From: Halarcobacter sp. | GTDB lineage: Bacteria; Campylobacterota; Campylobacteria; Campylobacterales; Arcobacteraceae | Direction of reading: 5' to 3' | Assembly (NCBI GenBank): GCA_963676565.1 | Contig: OY781089.1 | Location: 1,312,001 to 1,376,000, forward strand | DNA: 64,000 nucleotides | Shown: piece by piece, positions 1 to 15,855 of the stretch | How the letters are laid out: each line of letters starts with the position of its first letter | Numbering within the stretch: the stretch's first letter is position 1 | Notes under the pieces: generated by a model | Database searches by the model: none | What the model was told of the DNA's origin: nothing | What the model saw: the letters and a program-made list of their open reading frames with translations, nothing else | Position numbers and translations under genes: made by a program

Positions 1-1152
1 CTTAGTGAAGAGGATACTTATTTACTAGTTATTGATAATTTTAAAGAAAAAATTATAGAGGGTCTTTCTAATAGTCCTTTTTTATTCCCGACAAGAGTTT
101 TTTCTGCAAATGATATATCTATAGTAAGTTGTATGTCAGATGGGAATCAGAACTCATTATTAAAAGCTTATGTGAATTGTTTAAGAGGAAATCATAATAA
201 TTATTTTACAGATTCTCCCTTAGATAATAACAATAAAGAAGTTCTAACAATACCATATAAGAAATTTAGTAAGAGCGACAATATAAATATTGCAATTACT
301 AATTTTAAAGTGGATGAAAGCTTTTGGAAAAAATCAGTCATAAAAAAACCTGTTAAAAGTTTATCTAGATATTTACAATTAGAGAGAATTATAAAAGATG
401 CAGTTAAAAAGAAACCTGACTATTTAATACTTCCAGAGTTATCTATACCACAAGAGTGGGCTTGGAGAATATCTAAAAAATTACTATCTAATGGCATATC
501 TTTGATTACAGGGGTAGAATATATTCACTCAGAAGTAAATTCTCAGAAATATGTTCATAATCCAATAATGATGTTCTTAATTTCAGATGATATTGGATTT
601 AAGTATATGAAATATTTTAGACAAGACAAACAAGTTGGTGCACATGGAGAATCATTTGAATTAAAAAAGATTGCAAATATTGAACTTATTGCAGATAAGC
701 TATATAAAAAGAAATATATTTATTCTCATGGTGATTTTTTCTTCTCATGTTTAATTTGTAATGAGTTAACAGATATTGAAAATAGAATGAGACTTAGAGG
801 TAATATTGATACTCTATTTATAGTAGAATGGAACAAAGATATAAAATCTTTTAATTCATTAGTAGAGTCGGCTTCATTAGATATTCATTCGTATATAGTA
901 CAAGTTAATAATAGAAAATATGGAGATAGTAGAATAAGAGCACCTTTTAAAGATGATTTTAAAAGAGATATTGTACAAGTCAAGGGTGGAAAGCATGACT
1001 ATCTAATAGTTGGTGAAATAAATGTTAATAGTTTAAGAAATTTTCAATCACACAATATTTCACCATCAGTACCTTTTAAGCCTGTTCCTACAGGGTTTAA
1101 AATGTTAAAAGCTAGAAAAAAATGGGAAAATGAAATAAAAGAAGATTTATAA
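1..1152 (+). CDS. 5'-truncated ORF: C-terminal carbon-nitrogen hydrolase (nitrilase) domain, probably of an RT-nitrilase fusion (UG1/DRT1-like defence protein)
   Basis: Frame 1 is open from base 1 (LSEEDTYLL...FLFPTRVFS...), so the track's M at 133 is internal. Nitrilase triad-like motifs PELSIP (E), QDK (K), LICNE (C). C-terminal EWNKD..F..LVE..LDIH...NNRKYGDSRIRAP...KGG...FKPVP block, which I recall from RT-nitrilase proteins. The RT domain lies outside the window. Confidence 0.7.
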   Translation, partial: LSEEDTYLLVIDNFKEKIIEGLSNSPFLFPTRVFSANDISIVSCMSDGNQNSLLKAYVNCLRGNHNNYFTDSPLDNNNKEVLTIPYKKFSKSDNINIAITNFKVDESFWKKSVIKKPVKSLSRYLQLERIIKDAVKKKPDYLILPELSIPQEWAWRISKKLLSNGISLITGVEYIHSEVNSQKYVHNPIMMFLISDDIGFKYMKYFRQDKQVGAHGESFELKKIANIELIADKLYKKKYIYSHGDFFFSCLICNELTDIENRMRLRGNIDTLFIVEWNKDIKSFNSLVESASLDIHSYIVQVNNRKYGDSRIRAPFKDDFKRDIVQVKGGKHDYLIVGEINVNSLRNFQSHNISPSVPFKPVPTGFKMLKARKKWENEIKEDL

Positions 1153-1190
1153 GACTATTTATATTTTCAAGTAAATCTTGGAATATTCAT

Positions 1191-1314
1191 ATTATACCTT
1201 TATTGTAAAAAATATCATAAGATGGTTCATGATGGAACAATAAATGTAAATGGTTTTGTTGCAACTTCGACTGGATTAGAATTACATTATACAATGGTGG
1301 ATGAAGATAAATAG
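1191..1314 (+). pseudogene. Frameshifted remnant of an HNH-type C-terminus (MutS7/MutS-HNH-like)
   Basis: Reads IIPL(+1 nt)CKKYHKMVHDGTINVNGFVATSTGLELHYTMVDEDK*, resembling the HNH tail xLxPLCxxHHxxxH. No start codon or upstream domain. Confidence 0.5.
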
Positions 1315-1398
1315 AATAATATTTCTACAAAAAATTTAAAAAAATCATCTTTTTAATGTTAAAATACATAAAATATTTGTAGATTAAAAGGCTATTTT

Positions 1399-1791
1399 GT
1401 GAATGAACAAATAAAACATTATGAAGATAAATTAAAATATGAAATTGATTCATATGACCTATCAGTGCTTTTAGAAAAAAAAGAAAAAGTTATTGTAATA
1501 GATGCAAGGGCGACTGAAGTTTATAATCAATCACATATTCCAACTGCTATTAGTTTTCCCCACAGAACTATGAATGAAGAAACAACAAAAGATTTAGATA
1601 AATCATTTTTATATGTAACCTATTGTGATGGCATAGGATGCAATGCTTCAACAAAAGGAGCATTAAACATGGCAAAGCTAGGGTTCAATGTAAAAGAGCT
1701 TCTAGGTGGTTTAGATTGGTGGAAAAGGGATGGTTATGAAACCTTAGGAACAAAAGGAACTGCGAAACAAAATATTCAGTGTGGATGCTAA
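1399..1791 (+). CDS. Rhodanese-like domain protein
   Basis: IDAR...HIP.A, YCDGIGCNAS active loop, LLGGLDWW. Confidence 0.85.
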   Translation: MNEQIKHYEDKLKYEIDSYDLSVLLEKKEKVIVIDARATEVYNQSHIPTAISFPHRTMNEETTKDLDKSFLYVTYCDGIGCNASTKGALNMAKLGFNVKELLGGLDWWKRDGYETLGTKGTAKQNIQCGC

Positions 1792-1814
1792 TTAGTTTTA
1801 ATCTAATTAACATC

Positions 1815-3137
1815 CTACTCTGAAGTTACATCAGGTAGTTTTGATGCCATAAAAACTCCAGCTAATCCTACAATTGCTAGTAGTAAAATAATTCCATTTA
1901 GACCAATAATTGAACTTAAAATACCAATAAATCCACTAAATAGTAAAATAAAACCAATAACAGTATTTGAAACAGCTACATAATCTGTTCTTTTATTTCC
2001 CCCTGCAAGGTCAACTAAATAGGTTTTTCTTCCTATTCTAATACCTTGATATCCAATAGTTAAAATAAAATAGATTAAGGGCATTAACCAAATAGTTGCA
2101 AAAATATTTTCAAAAAAAGTGTCTAAAAAGAATACTAGAAATCCTAAAATAGAAGCAATAGTTGCCCCAATAATCATAGAGTTTTTACTTGATTTATCTG
2201 ATAGTTTTCCCCAAATAATTGAAGAAGAAAAATCAGCTAATCCTCCTGCAAGTATAAAAAGGCCAAGTAAGTAGTTATTTGATTCACTTTGTTGTTGGGC
2301 TAAAATTACAAAAAATGGAGCAGATAAAACAGAGCATAAAAAAAGTGCCCTTGATATTACAAAATTTCTAAAATCTTTATCTGTTTTAAGTAATTTTACT
2401 TTTTTTAGTGCAACACTAATTGCATTTCCTCCACCATCAGTTTCCCCTTCAAACTCATTTATTCTTGAATATATCAGCCCTGCTATTATCCAAAAAGCAC
2501 CAGCAGAAAATAAAATTATTCCAAAGTTTTGAGGCGAAAAAGGCTTTTCTCCAACTATTAAAAAATAGATTCCAAGACCTATTATTAAAAGTCCAGCTAA
2601 ACTTCCAGAGTATCCATTTAATACCCCTCGTCTAGTTTTAGGAATAGTTTTTCCTAAGACATCCTTTGCGGCAACTGAGCTAAGACCCCTTGCAAGTGAA
2701 AAAACAATAATTAATGCAATGATTGCAATTCCTGCATTAAGTCCTGTCATATTCCAAGCAACAATTCCAATTCCTATCATAGAAAGCGCTTGTAAAAAAG
2801 CACCACTCACCCAAACATATTTTCTAATAGGCATTTTTCTAACATAAGCAGCAATTAAAAGTTGAGGTAGAAGTGAACCTGATTCTCTAATAGGAACAAG
2901 GAAACTTATTAAAAAAAGAGGTACTGAAATTGATTCCATAATCCAAGGTATAATAACCTTCGTATTTGCAACTGAGTCTGCTAATTTATTAAAAAAGTAG
3001 CTAATTATTGTAAGAAAAAAGTTTCCAGGAACTACTTTACAAGCACTTTCATCAATTGCTTTACAAACTCTAGCATCTTCTTCATTCATCAGTTTTTCAT
3101 AAACTGATTCAGTTTTTTTTCTAATTCTTTCTTTCAT
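1815..3137 (-). CDS. MFS transporter
   Basis: About 12 hydrophobic segments; WGKLSDK MFS loop motif. Confidence 0.8.
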   Translation of the reverse strand: MKERIRKKTESVYEKLMNEEDARVCKAIDESACKVVPGNFFLTIISYFFNKLADSVANTKVIIPWIMESISVPLFLISFLVPIRESGSLLPQLLIAAYVRKMPIRKYVWVSGAFLQALSMIGIGIVAWNMTGLNAGIAIIALIIVFSLARGLSSVAAKDVLGKTIPKTRRGVLNGYSGSLAGLLIIGLGIYFLIVGEKPFSPQNFGIILFSAGAFWIIAGLIYSRINEFEGETDGGGNAISVALKKVKLLKTDKDFRNFVISRALFLCSVLSAPFFVILAQQQSESNNYLLGLFILAGGLADFSSSIIWGKLSDKSSKNSMIIGATIASILGFLVFFLDTFFENIFATIWLMPLIYFILTIGYQGIRIGRKTYLVDLAGGNKRTDYVAVSNTVIGFILLFSGFIGILSSIIGLNGIILLLAIVGLAGVFMASKLPDVTSE

Positions 3138-3306
3138 CTTTTTTATTTTCTTCTTTTCTTCGTTTTTTTTCTTTTAAAATATTTCTAGTCATTAGTAATA
3201 AAAAAAGTAGGGCAATTGAGATATTTATATAAAAGCCTAACATATTGTTTTCTATAAAAAACATATATGCAAGGCTAGAAAAGATTAGTGAGATTATTAA
3301 GCACAT
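3121..3306 (-). CDS. Small membrane protein, hypothetical
   Basis: Two hydrophobic segments plus basic tail; fills the gap between hisA and the MFS gene and overlaps the MFS start. Confidence 0.5.
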   Translation of the reverse strand: MCLIISLIFSSLAYMFFIENNMLGFYINISIALLFLLLMTRNILKEKKRRKEENKKDERKN

Positions 3307-9627: not shown

Positions 9628-11415
9628 TTAAATCTTCAACACTGCCATGAAAGCTTCTTGTGGTACATTTACTTTACCTATAGCTTTCATTCTTTTCTTA
9701 CCTGCTTTTTGTTTTTCTAAAAGTTTTCTTTTTCTTGTAATATCACCACCATAACATTTAGCAGTAACATTTTTACCCATAGATTTTACAGTTTCTCTAG
9801 CAATAATTGTATTTCCAATTGATGCTTGAATTGCAACTTCAAATAGTTGTCTTGGGATTAATTCTTTTAAGGCTTTAATAAACTCTCTACCCCTTGAAAC
9901 TGCTTTTTCTTCAGGAACAATAATTGATAAGGCATCAACAACATCCCCCGCAACTCTAACATCAAGTTTTTTAAGATTTCCTGGTCTAAATTCAATTGGT
10001 TCATAATCAAAAGATGCATAACCTTTTGTAGTTGATTTTAATTTATCATAAAAATCCATAACAATTTCATTCATTGGAATATCATAATCTAAAAGAACTC
10101 TTTTACCTAAGTAATCCATTTTATTTTGAACGGCTCTTTTATCATTTAACAATTTAATTACATTTCCTAAAAACTCATCTGGAACTAAAATTGTTGCTCT
10201 TACATATGGTTCAAATATAGTATCAATATAGTTTGGTTCAGGAAGTTCAGATGGATTTTCTATAGTTAATTTTTCTCCATCAGTTTTTAAAATTTCATAA
10301 ACAACTGTTGGCGCAGTTGCTATTAAGTCAAGATTAAATTCTCTTTCTAGTCTTTCTTTTATAACTTCCATATGAAGCATTCCAAGGAAACCAGTTCTAA
10401 ATCCACTTCCAAGTGCAGCTGAGGATTCTGGTTCAAAAGAGATTGATGAATCGTTTAACTGTAATTTAGTAAGAGCTTCTCTTAAATCTTCAAATTTATC
10501 TGTTTCAATTGGATAAAGTCCTGCAAATACAAAAGGTTTTGCTGGTTCAAATCCATCAATTGCAATTTTAGTTGGATTTTTTGCATCAGTCATAGTATCA
10601 CCAACGGCAATTCCATCTAAAGTTTTAAGACCAAGAACAACAATTCCAATTTCACCCGTTTGTATTTCATTCGTTTTTTCTCTTTTTATTGGGTGAGGAT
10701 ACATTAAGTCTAATACTGGGTGTTCAACTTTTGTATTCATCATTTTAAGCATTTGACCTTTTTTAATACTACCTTCATAAACTCTTACTAGTGCTAAGGC
10801 ACCAAGGTAGTTATCAAACCATGAATCGTATATCAAAGCTTTAGTTGGTGCATTTTCATCACCATTTGGAGCAGGAACTCTATCAACTATAGAATCAATT
10901 AATTCTTTAACCCCTAAACCTGTTTTTGCCGAGATTAAATTGTGTTCAGTACAATCAAGTCCAATTGCTTCTTCGGTTTCTTCAAGTACCCTCATAGGAT
11001 CTGCACTTGGTAAATCGATTTTATTTACAACAGGTAATAGTTCTAAATCATTATCAAGTGCAATATAAACGTTTGCAATAGTTTGTGCTTCAACACCTTG
11101 TGTTGAGTCAACAATTAAAAGTGCACCCTCTGATGAAGCTAAAGAACGACTCACTTCATATGAAAAGTCAACGTGACCTGGAGTGTCAATTAGGTTTAAG
11201 ATGTATGTCTCACCATCTTTTACATATTTTAATCTTACACTTTGAGCTTTAATTGTAATTCCACGCTCTTGTTCAATATCCATTGTATCCATCATTTGTG
11301 AAGTAAGTTCTCTATCTGTAACAGCTCCACACTCTTGAATTATTCTATCTGCAAGAGTTGATTTACCATGGTCAATATGAGCAATAATACTAAAGTTTCT
11401 AATATTTTTTTGCAA
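9628..11415 (-). CDS. lepA: Elongation factor 4
   Basis: [37 protein letters not shown]. Confidence 0.99.
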
Positions 11416-14754: not shown

Positions 14755-15855
14755 TTACTTATAGTCACTTATAAATCCACCACCTAGACAATAATTTCCA
14801 TCGTATAAAACTAGACTTTGTCCTAAGGTTACAGCTCTTTGAGGGGTGTCAAATTTAACAAGTACTCTATTTTCATCTGCTTCTATTACTGTACAAGCTT
14901 GTTTGTGTTGTCTATATCTAACTTGTGCCATCAATTTTTCACCAACTTTTGGTGCCTCTTCTAATACCCAATGCATATGACTAGCTTCTGTATATTCACT
15001 CATAAGTAAAGGATGGTTTGTATCTTGAACTACTGTAAGTGTATTATTTTCAATATCTTTTTTAGCTGCAAACCATGGTTTGTGTGTATTGTTCTCACCT
15101 TCATTATCTTTAATTCCACCAAGACCAATACCTTTTCTTTGACCTAGTGTGTAACAAATAAGACCTTTGTGCTTTCCTAAAACTTTTCCATTTTCATCTA
15201 TCATATCACCAGGAATAGCTTTTAAATGTTGTGTGATAAAATCATCAAATCTTTGATTACCAATAAAACAAATTCCTGTACTATCTTTTTTATCACTTAC
15301 AGGAAGATTATGCTCTCTAGCTATTTCTCTAACTTCTTTTTTTGTTAAATCTCCAAGGGGAAACATCGCATGACTTAATTGTTCACTTGATAATGCATGT
15401 AAAAAGTAACTTTGGTCTTTTGAACTATCTTTGGGAGTATCAAGAACATAATGGTCTTTATAAAAAGCAATTTTGGCATAGTGTCCAGTTGCAATCATAT
15501 CTGCACCCATTTTTTTAGCTTCATTTAAAAATACATTAAATTTAATTTCACGATTACATAAAATATCTGGGTTAGGAGTAAGTCCTTTTTTTAAACCTTC
15601 TAAAAAAACATCAAAAACTTTTGTTCTATACTCTTCAACAAAGTCTTTACCCTTTACCTCAATTCCTATTAAGGCACCAACTTTTTTTGCATCTTCAAAT
15701 TCAATACGATTAGGGCATTGGCTACCTTTTATTCCATATTCCCAATTTCGCATAAATAGACCAACTACATCATAACCTTGTTGTTTTAACAATAGTGCTG
15801 TAACTGAAGAATCAACACCACCTGACATTCCTACAACAATTTTCTTTTTTTTCAT
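14755..15855 (-). CDS. mnmA: tRNA 2-thiouridine(34) synthase, D-type (DxxC)
   Basis: SGGVDS, PNPDILCN, ATGHY, KDQSYFL, DSTGICFIG. Confidence 0.95.
   Translation of the reverse strand: MKKKKIVVGMSGGVDSSVTALLLKQQGYDVVGLFMRNWEYGIKGSQCPNRIEFEDAKKVGALIGIEVKGKDFVEEYRTKVFDVFLEGLKKGLTPNPDILCNREIKFNVFLNEAKKMGADMIATGHYAKIAFYKDHYVLDTPKDSSKDQSYFLHALSSEQLSHAMFPLGDLTKKEVREIAREHNLPVSDKKDSTGICFIGNQRFDDFITQHLKAIPGDMIDENGKVLGKHKGLICYTLGQRKGIGLGGIKDNEGENNTHKPWFAAKKDIENNTLTVVQDTNHPLLMSEYTEASHMHWVLEEAPKVGEKLMAQVRYRQHKQACTVIEADENRVLVKFDTPQRAVTLGQSLVLYDGNYCLGGGFISDYK

What the first reader, a model, noticed from the sequence alone, without database searches (positions are those of the whole stretch)
1..1152. Tail of a probable reverse transcriptase-nitrilase (UG1/DRT1-like) anti-phage gene at the left edge
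Seen: the frame is open from base 1, so this is the last ~383 aa of a larger protein. It keeps an intact nitrilase E-K-C triad (PELS / QDK / ICNE), an FPTR block and a long C-terminal YGDSRIRAP..KGG..FKPVP signature. Known: nitrilase domains are fused to the C-terminus of UG1/UG5/UG6-type defence RTs, including DRT1. Inference: an RT defence system lies just left of the window. No small membrane partner gene (drt1b-like) follows it, so this may be a stand-alone or differently organised variant.
Basis: partly seen in the sequence, partly recalled or inferred. Interest (0 to 1): 0.8.

Follow-up and report, generated by a model that had tools for sequence, protein, structure and literature searches.

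The report
Reverse transcriptase-nitrilase phage-defence gene tail
The left edge of the window is the last third of an intact reverse transcriptase-nitrilase gene of a known anti-phage type (UG5-large), which arrived in this genome together with an ATPase-nuclease gene as a small inserted cassette.

Summary
Extended into the genome, it is the tail of an intact 1037-aa gene. That gene has an N-terminal reverse transcriptase (YVDD at residues 296-299) and a C-terminal nitrilase with an invariant Glu800-Lys864-Cys907 triad.

It matches PADLOC's RT_UG5-nitrilase profile end to end (E 1.3e-243). Drt1a matches only weakly. So it is UG5-large (class 3 UG/Abi, the DRT5L/DRT11 kind) and not DRT1.

No membrane partner follows it, which is true of most UG5-large genes.

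The gene and an upstream 717-aa GHKL-ATPase/PD-(D/E)xK-nuclease gene form a 5.6-kb cassette. The cassette is bounded by 111-bp direct repeats of the 3' end of a MutS-HNH gene. The closest relative genome has the same site empty.

The two genes recur together in one clade of each family, including another organism with different flanks. Both families mostly occur apart.

Most likely mechanism, by homology with DRT1 and DRT11: protein-primed, template-free DNA synthesis gates a nitrilase effector and causes abortive infection.

Verdict: a new member of a known kind. The possible partnership with the ATPase-nuclease is the only open novelty.

The parts
1..1152 (+). In-window part (last 383 codons and the stop) of the 1037-aa RT-nitrilase gene P0002. 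The whole gene is G000:C1:1310039-1313152 = L005 12039-15152 and starts 1961 bases left of the window. L005 coordinate = window coordinate + 14000. Its RT box YVDD (residues 296-299) lies at L005 12924-12935, left of the window.
   Evidence: ORF. PADLOC RT_UG5-nitrilase E 1.3e-243, residues 4-1034 on model 19-904 of 907. Pfam RVT_1 at residues 168-306, E 2.4e-13. YVDD position. Y296, D298 and D299 are invariant in 26 relatives and align with DRT1 D324/D325.
85..96 (+). FPTR block (residues 683-686) in the stretch between the RT and the nitrilase
   Evidence: Position. F683, T685 and R686 are at least 90% conserved in 26 UG5-large proteins.
436..438 (+). Nitrilase catalytic Glu800 (in PELS)
   Evidence: Invariant in 26 of 26 sequences. 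Position.
628..630 (+). Nitrilase catalytic Lys864 (in RQDK)
   Evidence: Invariant in 26 of 26 sequences. Position.
757..759 (+). Nitrilase catalytic Cys907 (in LICNE)
   Evidence: Invariant in 26 of 26 sequences. It aligns with DRT1 Cys1116 in the profile match to PDB 9yfd; the C1116A mutation abolishes DRT1 defence.
1075..1101 (+). Conserved C-terminal tail FKPVPTGFK (residues 1013-1021), counterpart of the DRT1 C-terminal 'lid'
   Evidence: K1014, P1015, P1017, G1019 and F1020 are invariant. The tail aligns with DRT1 1218-1226, placing K1014 on K1219; K1219A and C-terminal deletions abolish DRT1 defence.
1203..1313 (+). Right copy of the 111-bp direct repeat that bounds the 5.6-kb cassette. 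This is the orphaned original 3' end of the MutS-HNH gene and runs straight into the native downstream flank. The left copy, which is the present 3' end of that gene, lies left of the window at L005 9591-9701. Between the copies lie the 717-aa GHKL-ATPase/PD-(D/E)xK gene P0003 (L005 9867-12020, ending 18 bases before the RT start) and the RT-nitrilase gene.
   Evidence: Repeat: (92% identical, 5612 bases apart). In the alignment with the empty site of G014, this copy and the bases after it match G014's mutS end and spacer. Partner gene: ORF; invariant GHKL and D...ExK motifs; model with mean pLDDT 82; fold matches to the SMCHD1 ATPase module, Hsp90 and MutL-N; weak Pfam HSDR_N match at residues 581-639.
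1399..1791 (+). Rhodanese-domain gene (130 aa). Not part of the defence cassette; it is a separate indel of about 460 bp relative to G014 and G010.
   Evidence: Pfam Rhodanese E 4.2e-14. The alignment shows it missing from G014 and G010.

Best explanation
Window 1-1152 encodes the linker and nitrilase domain of an intact 1037-aa UG5-large reverse transcriptase-nitrilase. This is a class 3 UG/Abi defence RT of the same kind as DRT5L and the S. meliloti DRT11, and a relative of DRT1. Shown here: the full gene, both catalytic centres, the conserved C-terminal tail, and its arrival by horizontal transfer as a 5.6-kb two-gene cassette inserted at the 3' end of a MutS-HNH gene. Inferred by homology: the RT domain makes short DNA on itself without a template (protein-primed). 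These DNA adducts drive assembly into an oligomer in which the nitrilase is formed but kept closed by the C-terminal tail of a neighbouring subunit. A phage replication factor releases it, and the nitrilase then acts on an unknown essential small molecule, so the infected cell stops supporting the phage (abortive infection). No non-coding RNA and no membrane partner are needed. The upstream GHKL-ATPase/nuclease gene is most likely a second, self-sufficient defence gene that travels with the RT gene.
For: Identity:
- The whole 1037-aa protein matches PADLOC RT_UG5-nitrilase at E 1.3e-243, 809.5 bits, nearly end to end.
- Pfam RVT_1 matches residues 168-306.
- YVDD, Glu800, Lys864, Cys907 and the tail residues K1014, P1015, P1017, G1019 and F1020 are invariant in 26 UG5-large proteins at 30-64% identity.
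- A profile of 20 relatives finds solved DRT1 (9yfd) at E 1.3e-17. The alignment places YVDD on D324/D325, Cys907 on C1116 and K1014 on K1219.

Mechanism, from papers:
- DRT1, DRT5S and DRT5L make protein-linked DNA without a template. RT and nitrilase mutants lose defence. The C-terminal lid residues are essential (PMC13275509, sections 5, 8 and 10 read).
- DRT11, a UG5-large of 1005 aa with YVDD at 294-297, defends alone, with no membrane protein and no ncRNA seen (PMC13436386, abstract and sections 23-25 and 28 read).

Horizontal acquisition:
- No orthologue was found in the 24 same-genus and 16 same-order genomes searched; the 8 genomes that matched gave only short partial hits at E 1.2e-7 or weaker.
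- 3 of 400 other genomes of the class match at E <= 1e-30, only one of them along the whole length.
- The closest relative, G014 (MutS 98% identical), has the site empty.
- 111-bp direct repeats lie 5612 bases apart.

No RNA element: no Rfam match above threshold, and the upstream spacer folds no better than shuffles, z = +0.54.
Against: - No function was measured here; the whole mechanism is carried over from DRT1, which is only a distant relative (two local profile matches). The DRT1 priming serine S402 is not conserved in other class 3 RTs according to that paper.
- Pfam's CN_hydrolase model does not match the nitrilase part.
- The AlphaFold2 model of the protein was poor, with mean pLDDT 52.5 and the nitrilase part below 50, so the fold was not confirmed structurally.
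- One tested UG5-large system (E. coli E101) needs a membrane partner, according to Mestre et al. (passage read). This locus lacks one, so self-sufficiency is not guaranteed.
- The tight, recurrent linkage to the upstream gene could mean that the RT-nitrilase is not autonomous here.
Confidence: 0.85

Rival explanations
1. The RT-nitrilase and the upstream GHKL-ATPase/PD-(D/E)xK-nuclease are one interdependent two-gene system. This would be a new UG5-large variant in which an ATPase-nuclease takes the place that a membrane protein has in other UG5-large or UG1 loci, for example as sensor or second effector.
For: - The genes are on the same strand with tiny spacers: 18 bases in this genome and 2 bases in metagenome locus L196.
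- In run X3, from a differently labelled organism, one contig bridges the junction of the two genes at about 95% DNA identity. The likeness starts at the partner's start codon and ends 9 bases before the RT stop, so the flanks differ. X4 holds fragments of both genes.
- Three more pairs are inferred because the closest relatives of each protein sit on single contigs of identical length: 10697, 7407 and 5621 bases. The 5621-base contig can only hold both genes if they are adjacent.
- All 5 paired RTs fall in one 19-row clade (support 98) and all 5 paired partners in one 11-row clade (support 97). The pair has therefore lasted through about 40% protein divergence.
Against: - 0 of 80 genome loci of the partner family have an RT-nitrilase within 7 kb; 62 of them have at least 3.2 kb downstream. 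Instead 15-18 of the 80 sit inside type I restriction-modification operons.
- 0 of 79 wider UG5-large loci have the partner.
- Among close-clade RT loci with at least 1.9 kb upstream, 1 of 8 is paired. L201 lies inside the paired clade and is unpaired.
- Other close relatives sit next to different defence genes: a type III methylase, nSTAND3/PDC-S73, PDC-S02 and PDC-S05.
- Divergence of the two genes is not parallel: RTs P0111 and P0118 are 85% identical while their partners are 59% identical; Pearson r over 10 pairs is -0.27.
- DRT1 and DRT11 work as single genes.
Confidence: 0.27
2. It is a true DRT1 (UG1) system.
For: PADLOC Drt1a matches at E 2.9e-30, and solved DRT1 is the best PDB match to the family profile. 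Nitrilases of UG1 nest within the UG5 radiation according to PMC13436386 (section 23 read).
Against: - Drt1a scores 102.9 bits in two partial stretches, against 809.5 bits end to end for RT_UG5-nitrilase.
- The protein has 1037 aa, against 1200-1300 aa for UG1 (passage) and 1229 aa for the solved DRT1 chain.
- No drt1b-like gene follows.
Confidence: 0.03
3. It is a stand-alone metabolic nitrilase or amidase, or a decayed relic of a defence gene that no longer works.
For: The window alone shows only the nitrilase part. An internal ATG at window 133 could start a 339-aa protein. No expression data could be found.
Against: - The frame runs on for 654 more codons into an RT domain without a stop.
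- Pfam CN_hydrolase does not match, while defence RT-nitrilase profiles match at E 1e-120 to 1e-243.
- The profile is covered almost end to end, and every invariant catalytic residue is intact.
Confidence: 0.03

Closest known systems
DRT11 of Sinorhizobium meliloti RMO17 (UG5-large; PMC13436386)
   Same: A single polypeptide of about 1000 aa (1005 against 1037) with an N-terminal RT, YVDD at almost the same position (294-297 against 296-299), a C-terminal nitrilase with the K-C-E centre, no membrane partner, and a location in a variable, horizontally acquired region that is absent from related strains.
   Different: It comes from a different phylum and replicon (megaplasmid against chromosome). 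DRT11's neighbours are toxin-antitoxin modules, whereas here the neighbour is a GHKL-ATPase/nuclease gene 18 bases upstream.
UG5-large with membrane protein (E. coli E101 system; described in Mestre et al. 2022, PMC9226505)
   Same: The same RT-nitrilase fusion family.
   Different: That system needs a downstream transmembrane protein (clusters 85/1858, present at 31 of 299 UG5-large genes). Here the downstream gene is a rhodanese that is not part of the cassette.
DRT1 / UG1 of Klebsiella pneumoniae (structure 9yfd; PMC13275509)
   Same: Class 3 architecture. The RT DD, the nitrilase Cys and the C-terminal lid Lys align. The likely mechanism is the same: protein-primed, template-free DNA synthesis gating a nitrilase.
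   Different: DRT1 is about 190 aa longer. Only two local stretches match the profile. DRT1's priming Ser402 is reported as not conserved outside DRT1. This protein's best family profile is UG5, not Drt1a.
UG5-small plus separate nitrilase (cluster 249; PADLOC RT_UG5_small and RTasNitrilase)
   Same: The RT part matches RT_UG5_small at E 6e-36 and the nitrilase part matches RTasNitrilase at E 1e-46.
   Different: Here the two parts are fused in one reading frame.
Tiamat (GHL ATPase plus PD-(D/E)xK DNase; bioRxiv 10.64898/2026.09.30.754977), as the nearest known kind for the upstream gene
   Same: An N-terminal GHKL-type ATPase and a C-terminal PD-(D/E)xK nuclease motif in one protein, with a defence-island or restriction-modification neighbourhood.
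   Different: There is no PADLOC hit of any kind at E <= 0.001 and no Pfam NOV_C/DUF3883 hit. The protein is shorter (717 aa). The C-terminal part resembles the HsdR N-terminal nuclease only weakly (E 7e-4).

Membership tests
UG5-large (class 3 UG/Abi RT; DRT5L/DRT11 type) | Reverse transcriptase domain with catalytic YxDD | tested here: met
   Pfam RVT_1 E 2.4e-13 at residues 168-306. YVDD at 296-299. Y296, D298 and D299 are invariant in 26 relatives.
UG5-large (class 3 UG/Abi RT; DRT5L/DRT11 type) | C-N hydrolase (nitrilase) domain fused in frame at the C-terminus, with Glu-Lys-Cys | tested here: met
   PADLOC RTasNitrilase E 1e-46 at residues 789-1021. E800, K864 and C907 are invariant. C907 aligns with DRT1 C1116. 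Pfam CN_hydrolase itself does not match.
UG5-large (class 3 UG/Abi RT; DRT5L/DRT11 type) | Best and full-length match to the UG5-nitrilase profile rather than to other UG groups | tested here: met
   PDLC03780 scores 809.5 bits over model positions 19-904 of 907. The next other group is Drt1a at 102.9 bits.
UG5-large (class 3 UG/Abi RT; DRT5L/DRT11 type) | Placement inside the UG5 clade on the reference UG/Abi RT tree | not tested
   The reference sequence set was not available. The only supplement held for PMC9226505 is a tree file without sequences.
UG5-large (class 3 UG/Abi RT; DRT5L/DRT11 type) | Downstream transmembrane protein (optional: 31 of 299 members) | tested here: not met
   The downstream gene is a rhodanese, and the spacer holds only ORFs of 21-42 aa. 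This is not a defining feature.
UG5-large (class 3 UG/Abi RT; DRT5L/DRT11 type) | Anti-phage activity that needs both catalytic centres; protein-primed, template-free DNA synthesis | not testable with these tools
   Known for DRT1, DRT5S/L and DRT11 from papers only.
DRT1 (UG1) | Full-length match to the Drt1a profile; size of 1200-1300 aa | tested here: not met
   Drt1a scores 102.9 bits in two partial stretches. The protein has 1037 aa.
DRT1 (UG1) | Conserved priming serine (S402 of DRT1) | not tested
   The profile match to 9yfd does not cover that region. The paper says this serine is not conserved in other class 3 RTs.
Metabolic nitrilase/amidase (Pfam CN_hydrolase) | Match to the CN_hydrolase model in a free-standing protein | tested here: not met
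   0 Pfam families at E <= 1 for the 383-aa piece. The domain is fused to an RT.
Tiamat (for the upstream gene) | GHKL/Hsp90-like ATPase domain | tested here: met
   Bergerat-fold motifs are invariant. Foldseek top matches are the SMCHD1 ATPase module, Hsp90 and MutL-N, at E 1e-10 to 1e-9.
Tiamat (for the upstream gene) | NOV_C/DUF3883-type PD-(D/E)xK nuclease; match to the Tiamat profile | tested here: not met
   No PADLOC family at E <= 0.001. Pfam gives only a weak HSDR_N match. A D592...E606-x-K608 motif is invariant.

The most novel reading that the evidence does not exclude
In one clade centred on Campylobacterota, the UG5-large RT-nitrilase has acquired a dedicated GHKL-ATPase/PD-(D/E)xK-nuclease partner. 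The two form a mobile two-gene defence system not described so far, in which an ATP-driven DNA-binding nuclease either senses phage DNA for the RT-nitrilase or acts as its second effector. Searches for papers joining nitrilase RTs with GHKL ATPases found no report of such a pairing. Supplementary Table S2 of Mestre et al. 2022, which lists RT-associated gene clusters, could not be seen.
Probability: 0.27. Interest if true: 0.6.

Novelty: new member of a known kind. Interest (0 to 1): 0.35.

Why it matters
This locus adds an intact UG5-large RT-nitrilase from a lineage where the family is rare. It was found in 3 of 400 other genomes of the class at E <= 1e-30, and in only one of those along the whole length.

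It also shows how such a gene moves. The unit is a recombinase-free 5.6-kb cassette that carries its own copy of the target gene's 3' end. The insertion site holds different cargo in sister species.

The locus supplies a natural test case for whether class 3 defence RTs can recruit partners other than membrane proteins.

Finally, it points to a widespread, unnamed GHKL-ATPase/nuclease family that often sits inside type I restriction-modification operons and is itself a candidate defence gene.

Tried and rejected
- **Structure of the RT-nitrilase.** AlphaFold2 on 20 close relatives gave mean pLDDT 52.5, with residues 819-1037 below 50. That is too poor for a fold search, so none was run on it.
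- **Close relatives in genomes.** The search for related loci with the single protein found no relative in genome contigs. An alignment was needed.
- **Viral contigs.** No close-clade relative was found; only UG5-large genes at about 30% identity and unrelated RTs.
- **RNA element.** Rfam at E <= 1 gave one sub-threshold snoRNA match inside the partner gene, taken as chance. The 164-base spacer upstream of the partner folds no better than shuffles, z = +0.54, and is not conserved against L196.
- **Promoter and terminator scan.** 53 promoter-like sites against 48 expected, and 1 terminator-like site against 0.9 expected; uninformative in this AT-rich DNA.
- **Expression.** No RNA holder was listed among public runs, so nothing can be said about transcription.
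- **Flanking repeats in L196.** None longer than 37 bases was found.
- **Accessions for the paired metagenome proteins.** None are on record, so three pairs rest on equal contig lengths only.
- **Mestre 2022 supplement.** Only a tree file is held.
- **Complex prediction** was not used. The two proteins exceed its size limit, and there was no hypothesis about which domains touch.
- **Maximum-likelihood tree.** The treekit quick search did not finish in time. The trees used are FastTree with local support only.
Full report
**Observation**

Frame 1 of the window is open from base 1 to a stop at 1150-1152 and gives 383 aa. The piece alone matches three PADLOC profiles: RT_UG5-nitrilase at E 2.3e-120 (residues 21-380 on model positions 576-904 of 907), RTasNitrilase at 1.7e-47, and Drt1a at 2e-18. 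Pfam-A gives nothing at E <= 1. This fits the remark in Mestre et al. 2022 that class 3 hydrolases form a clade apart from other nitrilases (passage read).

**The whole gene**

The window is G000:C1:1312001-1376000. I fetched 14 kb to its left as locus L005, where L005 coordinate = window coordinate + 14000. The frame continues upstream to an ATG at L005 12039 and gives a 1037-aa protein, P0002.
- Pfam RVT_1 matches residues 168-306 at E 2.4e-13.
- YVDD lies at residues 296-299.
- PADLOC RT_UG5-nitrilase matches residues 4-1034 on model positions 19-904 of 907, at E 1.3e-243 and 809.5 bits. Drt1a reaches only 102.9 bits in two partial stretches.
- In an alignment of 26 UG5-large proteins at 30-64% identity, Y296, D298, D299, E800, K864, C907 and the tail residues K1014, P1015, P1017, G1019 and F1020 are invariant. 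F683, T685 and R686 of the FPTR block are at least 90% conserved.
- A profile of 20 close relatives finds the solved DRT1 structure 9yfd as best PDB match at E 1.3e-17. In the printed alignment the YVDD box falls on DRT1 D324/D325, C907 on C1116 and K1014 on K1219.

So the gene is intact, has both catalytic centres, and belongs to UG5-large (class 3 UG/Abi) rather than UG1/DRT1.

**Mechanism (inferred)**

Neville et al. 2026 (PMC13275509; abstract and sections 5, 8 and 10 read) report the following.
- DRT1, DRT5S and DRT5L synthesise DNA without a template and covalently on the protein.
- D324N/D325N and C1116A abolish defence.
- DNA adducts drive a tetramer and filament in which a domain-swapped C-terminal tail closes the nitrilase site.
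- K1219A, A1223F and C-terminal deletions abolish defence.
- A phage ssDNA helicase is needed for activation.
- The nitrilase substrate is unknown.

Sanchez-Nieto et al. 2026 (PMC13436386; abstract and sections 23-25 and 28 read) show that a 1005-aa UG5-large protein, DRT11, defends by itself. It needs no membrane protein, no ncRNA was detected, and the phenotype is abortive-infection-like.

Because the residues that matter in those studies are conserved here, I take the same mechanism as most likely. None of it was measured here. Consistent with the absence of an RNA partner, Rfam found nothing above threshold, and the upstream spacer has no fold signal (z = +0.54).

**Neighbours**

Downstream, the spacer holds only ORFs of 21-42 aa. 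It is followed by a 130-aa rhodanese (Pfam E 4.2e-14) and a convergent 440-aa membrane protein. There is no drt1b-like gene. A downstream membrane partner occurs at only 31 of 299 UG5-large genes.

Upstream, 18 bases before the RT start, lies a 717-aa gene, P0003 (L005 9867-12020). It has no PADLOC or NCBIfam match. In 16 relatives, GHKL ATPase motifs (E33, N37, D80-x-G82-x-G84, G107-S-G-R110) and a C-terminal D592...E606-x-K608 nuclease motif are invariant. Its predicted structure is confident, with mean pLDDT 82. The best fold matches are the SMCHD1 ATPase module, Hsp90, the MutL N-terminal domain and topoisomerase VI-B, at Foldseek E 1e-10 to 1e-8. In logic it resembles Tiamat, an ATPase plus PD-(D/E)xK DNase (passages of the 2026 preprint read), but it fails the Tiamat profile tests.

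**The cassette is an insertion**

The last 111 bases of the upstream MutS-HNH gene (P0004; Pfam MutS_I, MutS_III and MutS_V, with weaker HNH-type matches below their cut-offs) are repeated after the RT-nitrilase. The copies lie at L005 9591-9701 and 15203-15313, are 92% identical and are 5612 bases apart.
- MutS-HNH is present in 23 of 24 other genomes of the genus.
- In the closest relative, G014 (98% identical MutS), the gene is followed after 52 bases by the membrane-protein gene. There is no ATPase, no RT and no rhodanese.
- An alignment shows that the right-hand repeat copy and the bases after it are continuous with G014's native mutS end and spacer. The right-hand copy is therefore the orphaned original 3' end, and the incoming DNA supplied a new one.
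- The cassette contains no recombinase gene, which suggests single-crossover (Campbell-type) integration by homology. This is inference.
- The same site holds other cargo plus a mutS remnant in G010 (a 587-aa pentapeptide-repeat protein) and in G011.
- The rhodanese gene is a separate indel of about 460 bp.
- No orthologue of the RT-nitrilase turned up in the 24 same-genus and 16 same-order genomes searched. Eight genomes matched, but only over short stretches at E 1.2e-7 or weaker.
- In the class, 3 of 400 other genomes match at E <= 1e-30, one of them along the whole length at 55-60% identity.

**Is the ATPase-nuclease a partner?**

For a partnership:
- In metagenome locus L196, a 715-aa relative (68% identical) ends 2 bases before a 1043-aa RT-nitrilase (60% identical).
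- In run X3, labelled as a different organism, a 6692-base contig matches L005 11157-15143 with 204 differences (about 95% identity) and so bridges the gene junction. A second contig matches from the partner's start codon at 9867 onward at about 90% identity. Likeness stops at 9867 and at 15143, so the flanks differ. Run X4 holds fragments of both genes at 88-97% identity.
- The closest database relatives of the two proteins sit on single contigs of identical length: 10697, 7407, 5621 and 33089 bases. The 33089-base pair has the same gene lengths and identities as the pair in L196, whose contig is 31079 bases, and is probably the same locus.
- On FastTree trees all 5 paired RTs lie in one 19-row clade (support 98) and all 5 paired partners in one 11-row clade (support 97).

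Against a partnership:
- 0 of 80 genome loci of the partner family have an RT-nitrilase within 7 kb. Instead 15-18 of the 80 lie between hsdM/hsdS and hsdR of type I restriction-modification operons.
- 0 of 79 wider UG5-large loci have the partner.
- Of 8 distinct close-clade RT loci with at least 1.9 kb upstream, only L196 is paired. L201, which lies inside the paired clade, is not.
- The unpaired relatives sit next to other defence genes: a type III methylase, nSTAND3/PDC-S73, PDC-S02 and PDC-S05.
- Divergence of the two genes is not parallel: RTs at 85% identity go with partners at 59%.

I read this as two self-sufficient defence genes that often travel as one small island (about 0.55-0.6). 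A true two-gene system is a live alternative (about 0.27).

**Comparison and verdict**

The gene meets every defining feature of UG5-large that could be tested. It fails the tests for DRT1 and for metabolic nitrilases. Placement on the reference tree and function could not be tested.

It is a new member of a known kind.

Literature searches on UG5, DRT1, nitrilase and GHKL found no paper describing a GHKL-nuclease next to RT-nitrilases. Supplementary Table S2 of Mestre et al. 2022 might list such an association, but it could not be seen.

Noticed in passing
Left of the window: L005 6742-9702 (G000:C1:1304742-1307702): A 986-aa MutS with a C-terminal HNH-type nuclease region. Pfam matches MutS_I, MutS_III and MutS_V, with weak DUF968, HNHc_6 and HNH_2 matches. 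It is conserved in 23 of 24 other genomes of the genus. It resembles the MutS7 type discussed for epsilonproteobacteria and octocoral mitochondria (PMC3166940, search listing only).
   Followed up: partly
L027 (G010) 840-3185; L028 (G011) 840-2860; window 1203-1313: The 3' end of the MutS-HNH gene is a recurrent insertion site. G010 carries a 587-aa pentapeptide-repeat protein followed by a 72-codon mutS remnant. G011 carries other cargo followed by a 104-codon remnant. G014 is empty. None of the cassettes examined contains a recombinase gene.
   Followed up: partly
window 1399-1791: The rhodanese gene is a clean indel of about 460 bp relative to G014 and G010. It sits between the mutS spacer and the end of the membrane-protein gene, independent of the defence cassette.
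   Followed up: partly
Loci L031-L110 (for example L037 4224-13187): The 700-aa GHKL-ATPase/PD-(D/E)xK family of the upstream gene is widespread (Bacteroidota, Campylobacterota and others). In 15-18 of 80 loci it sits inside type I restriction-modification operons, in the order hsdM-hsdS-gene-...-hsdR. It has no PADLOC, NCBIfam or solved-structure sequence match. It is a candidate unnamed defence gene.
   Followed up: partly
L199, L204, L205, L195/L206, L207: Close relatives of the RT-nitrilase each have a different co-directional neighbour from known or candidate defence families: a type III methylase, nSTAND3/PDC-S73, a PDC-M36A-like protein, YhcG/PDC-S02, RhuM/PDC-S05, and a helicase with a T5orf172 protein.
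   Followed up: partly
L196 362-1954 (-): In the metagenome locus that carries the paired genes, a 530-aa protein with a weak replication-protein match (Pfam REP_ORF2-G2P, E 3.8e-7) lies 0.9 kb upstream. This hints at a plasmid or other mobile replicon context.
   Followed up: no
L005 9633-15243 in run X1: In the best-holding run the assembly graph breaks exactly at the repeats. A 5611-base piece spans the cassette, and a 61-base piece at the repeat has about twice the depth. This is consistent with a true duplication in the genome. It says nothing about excision.
   Followed up: no
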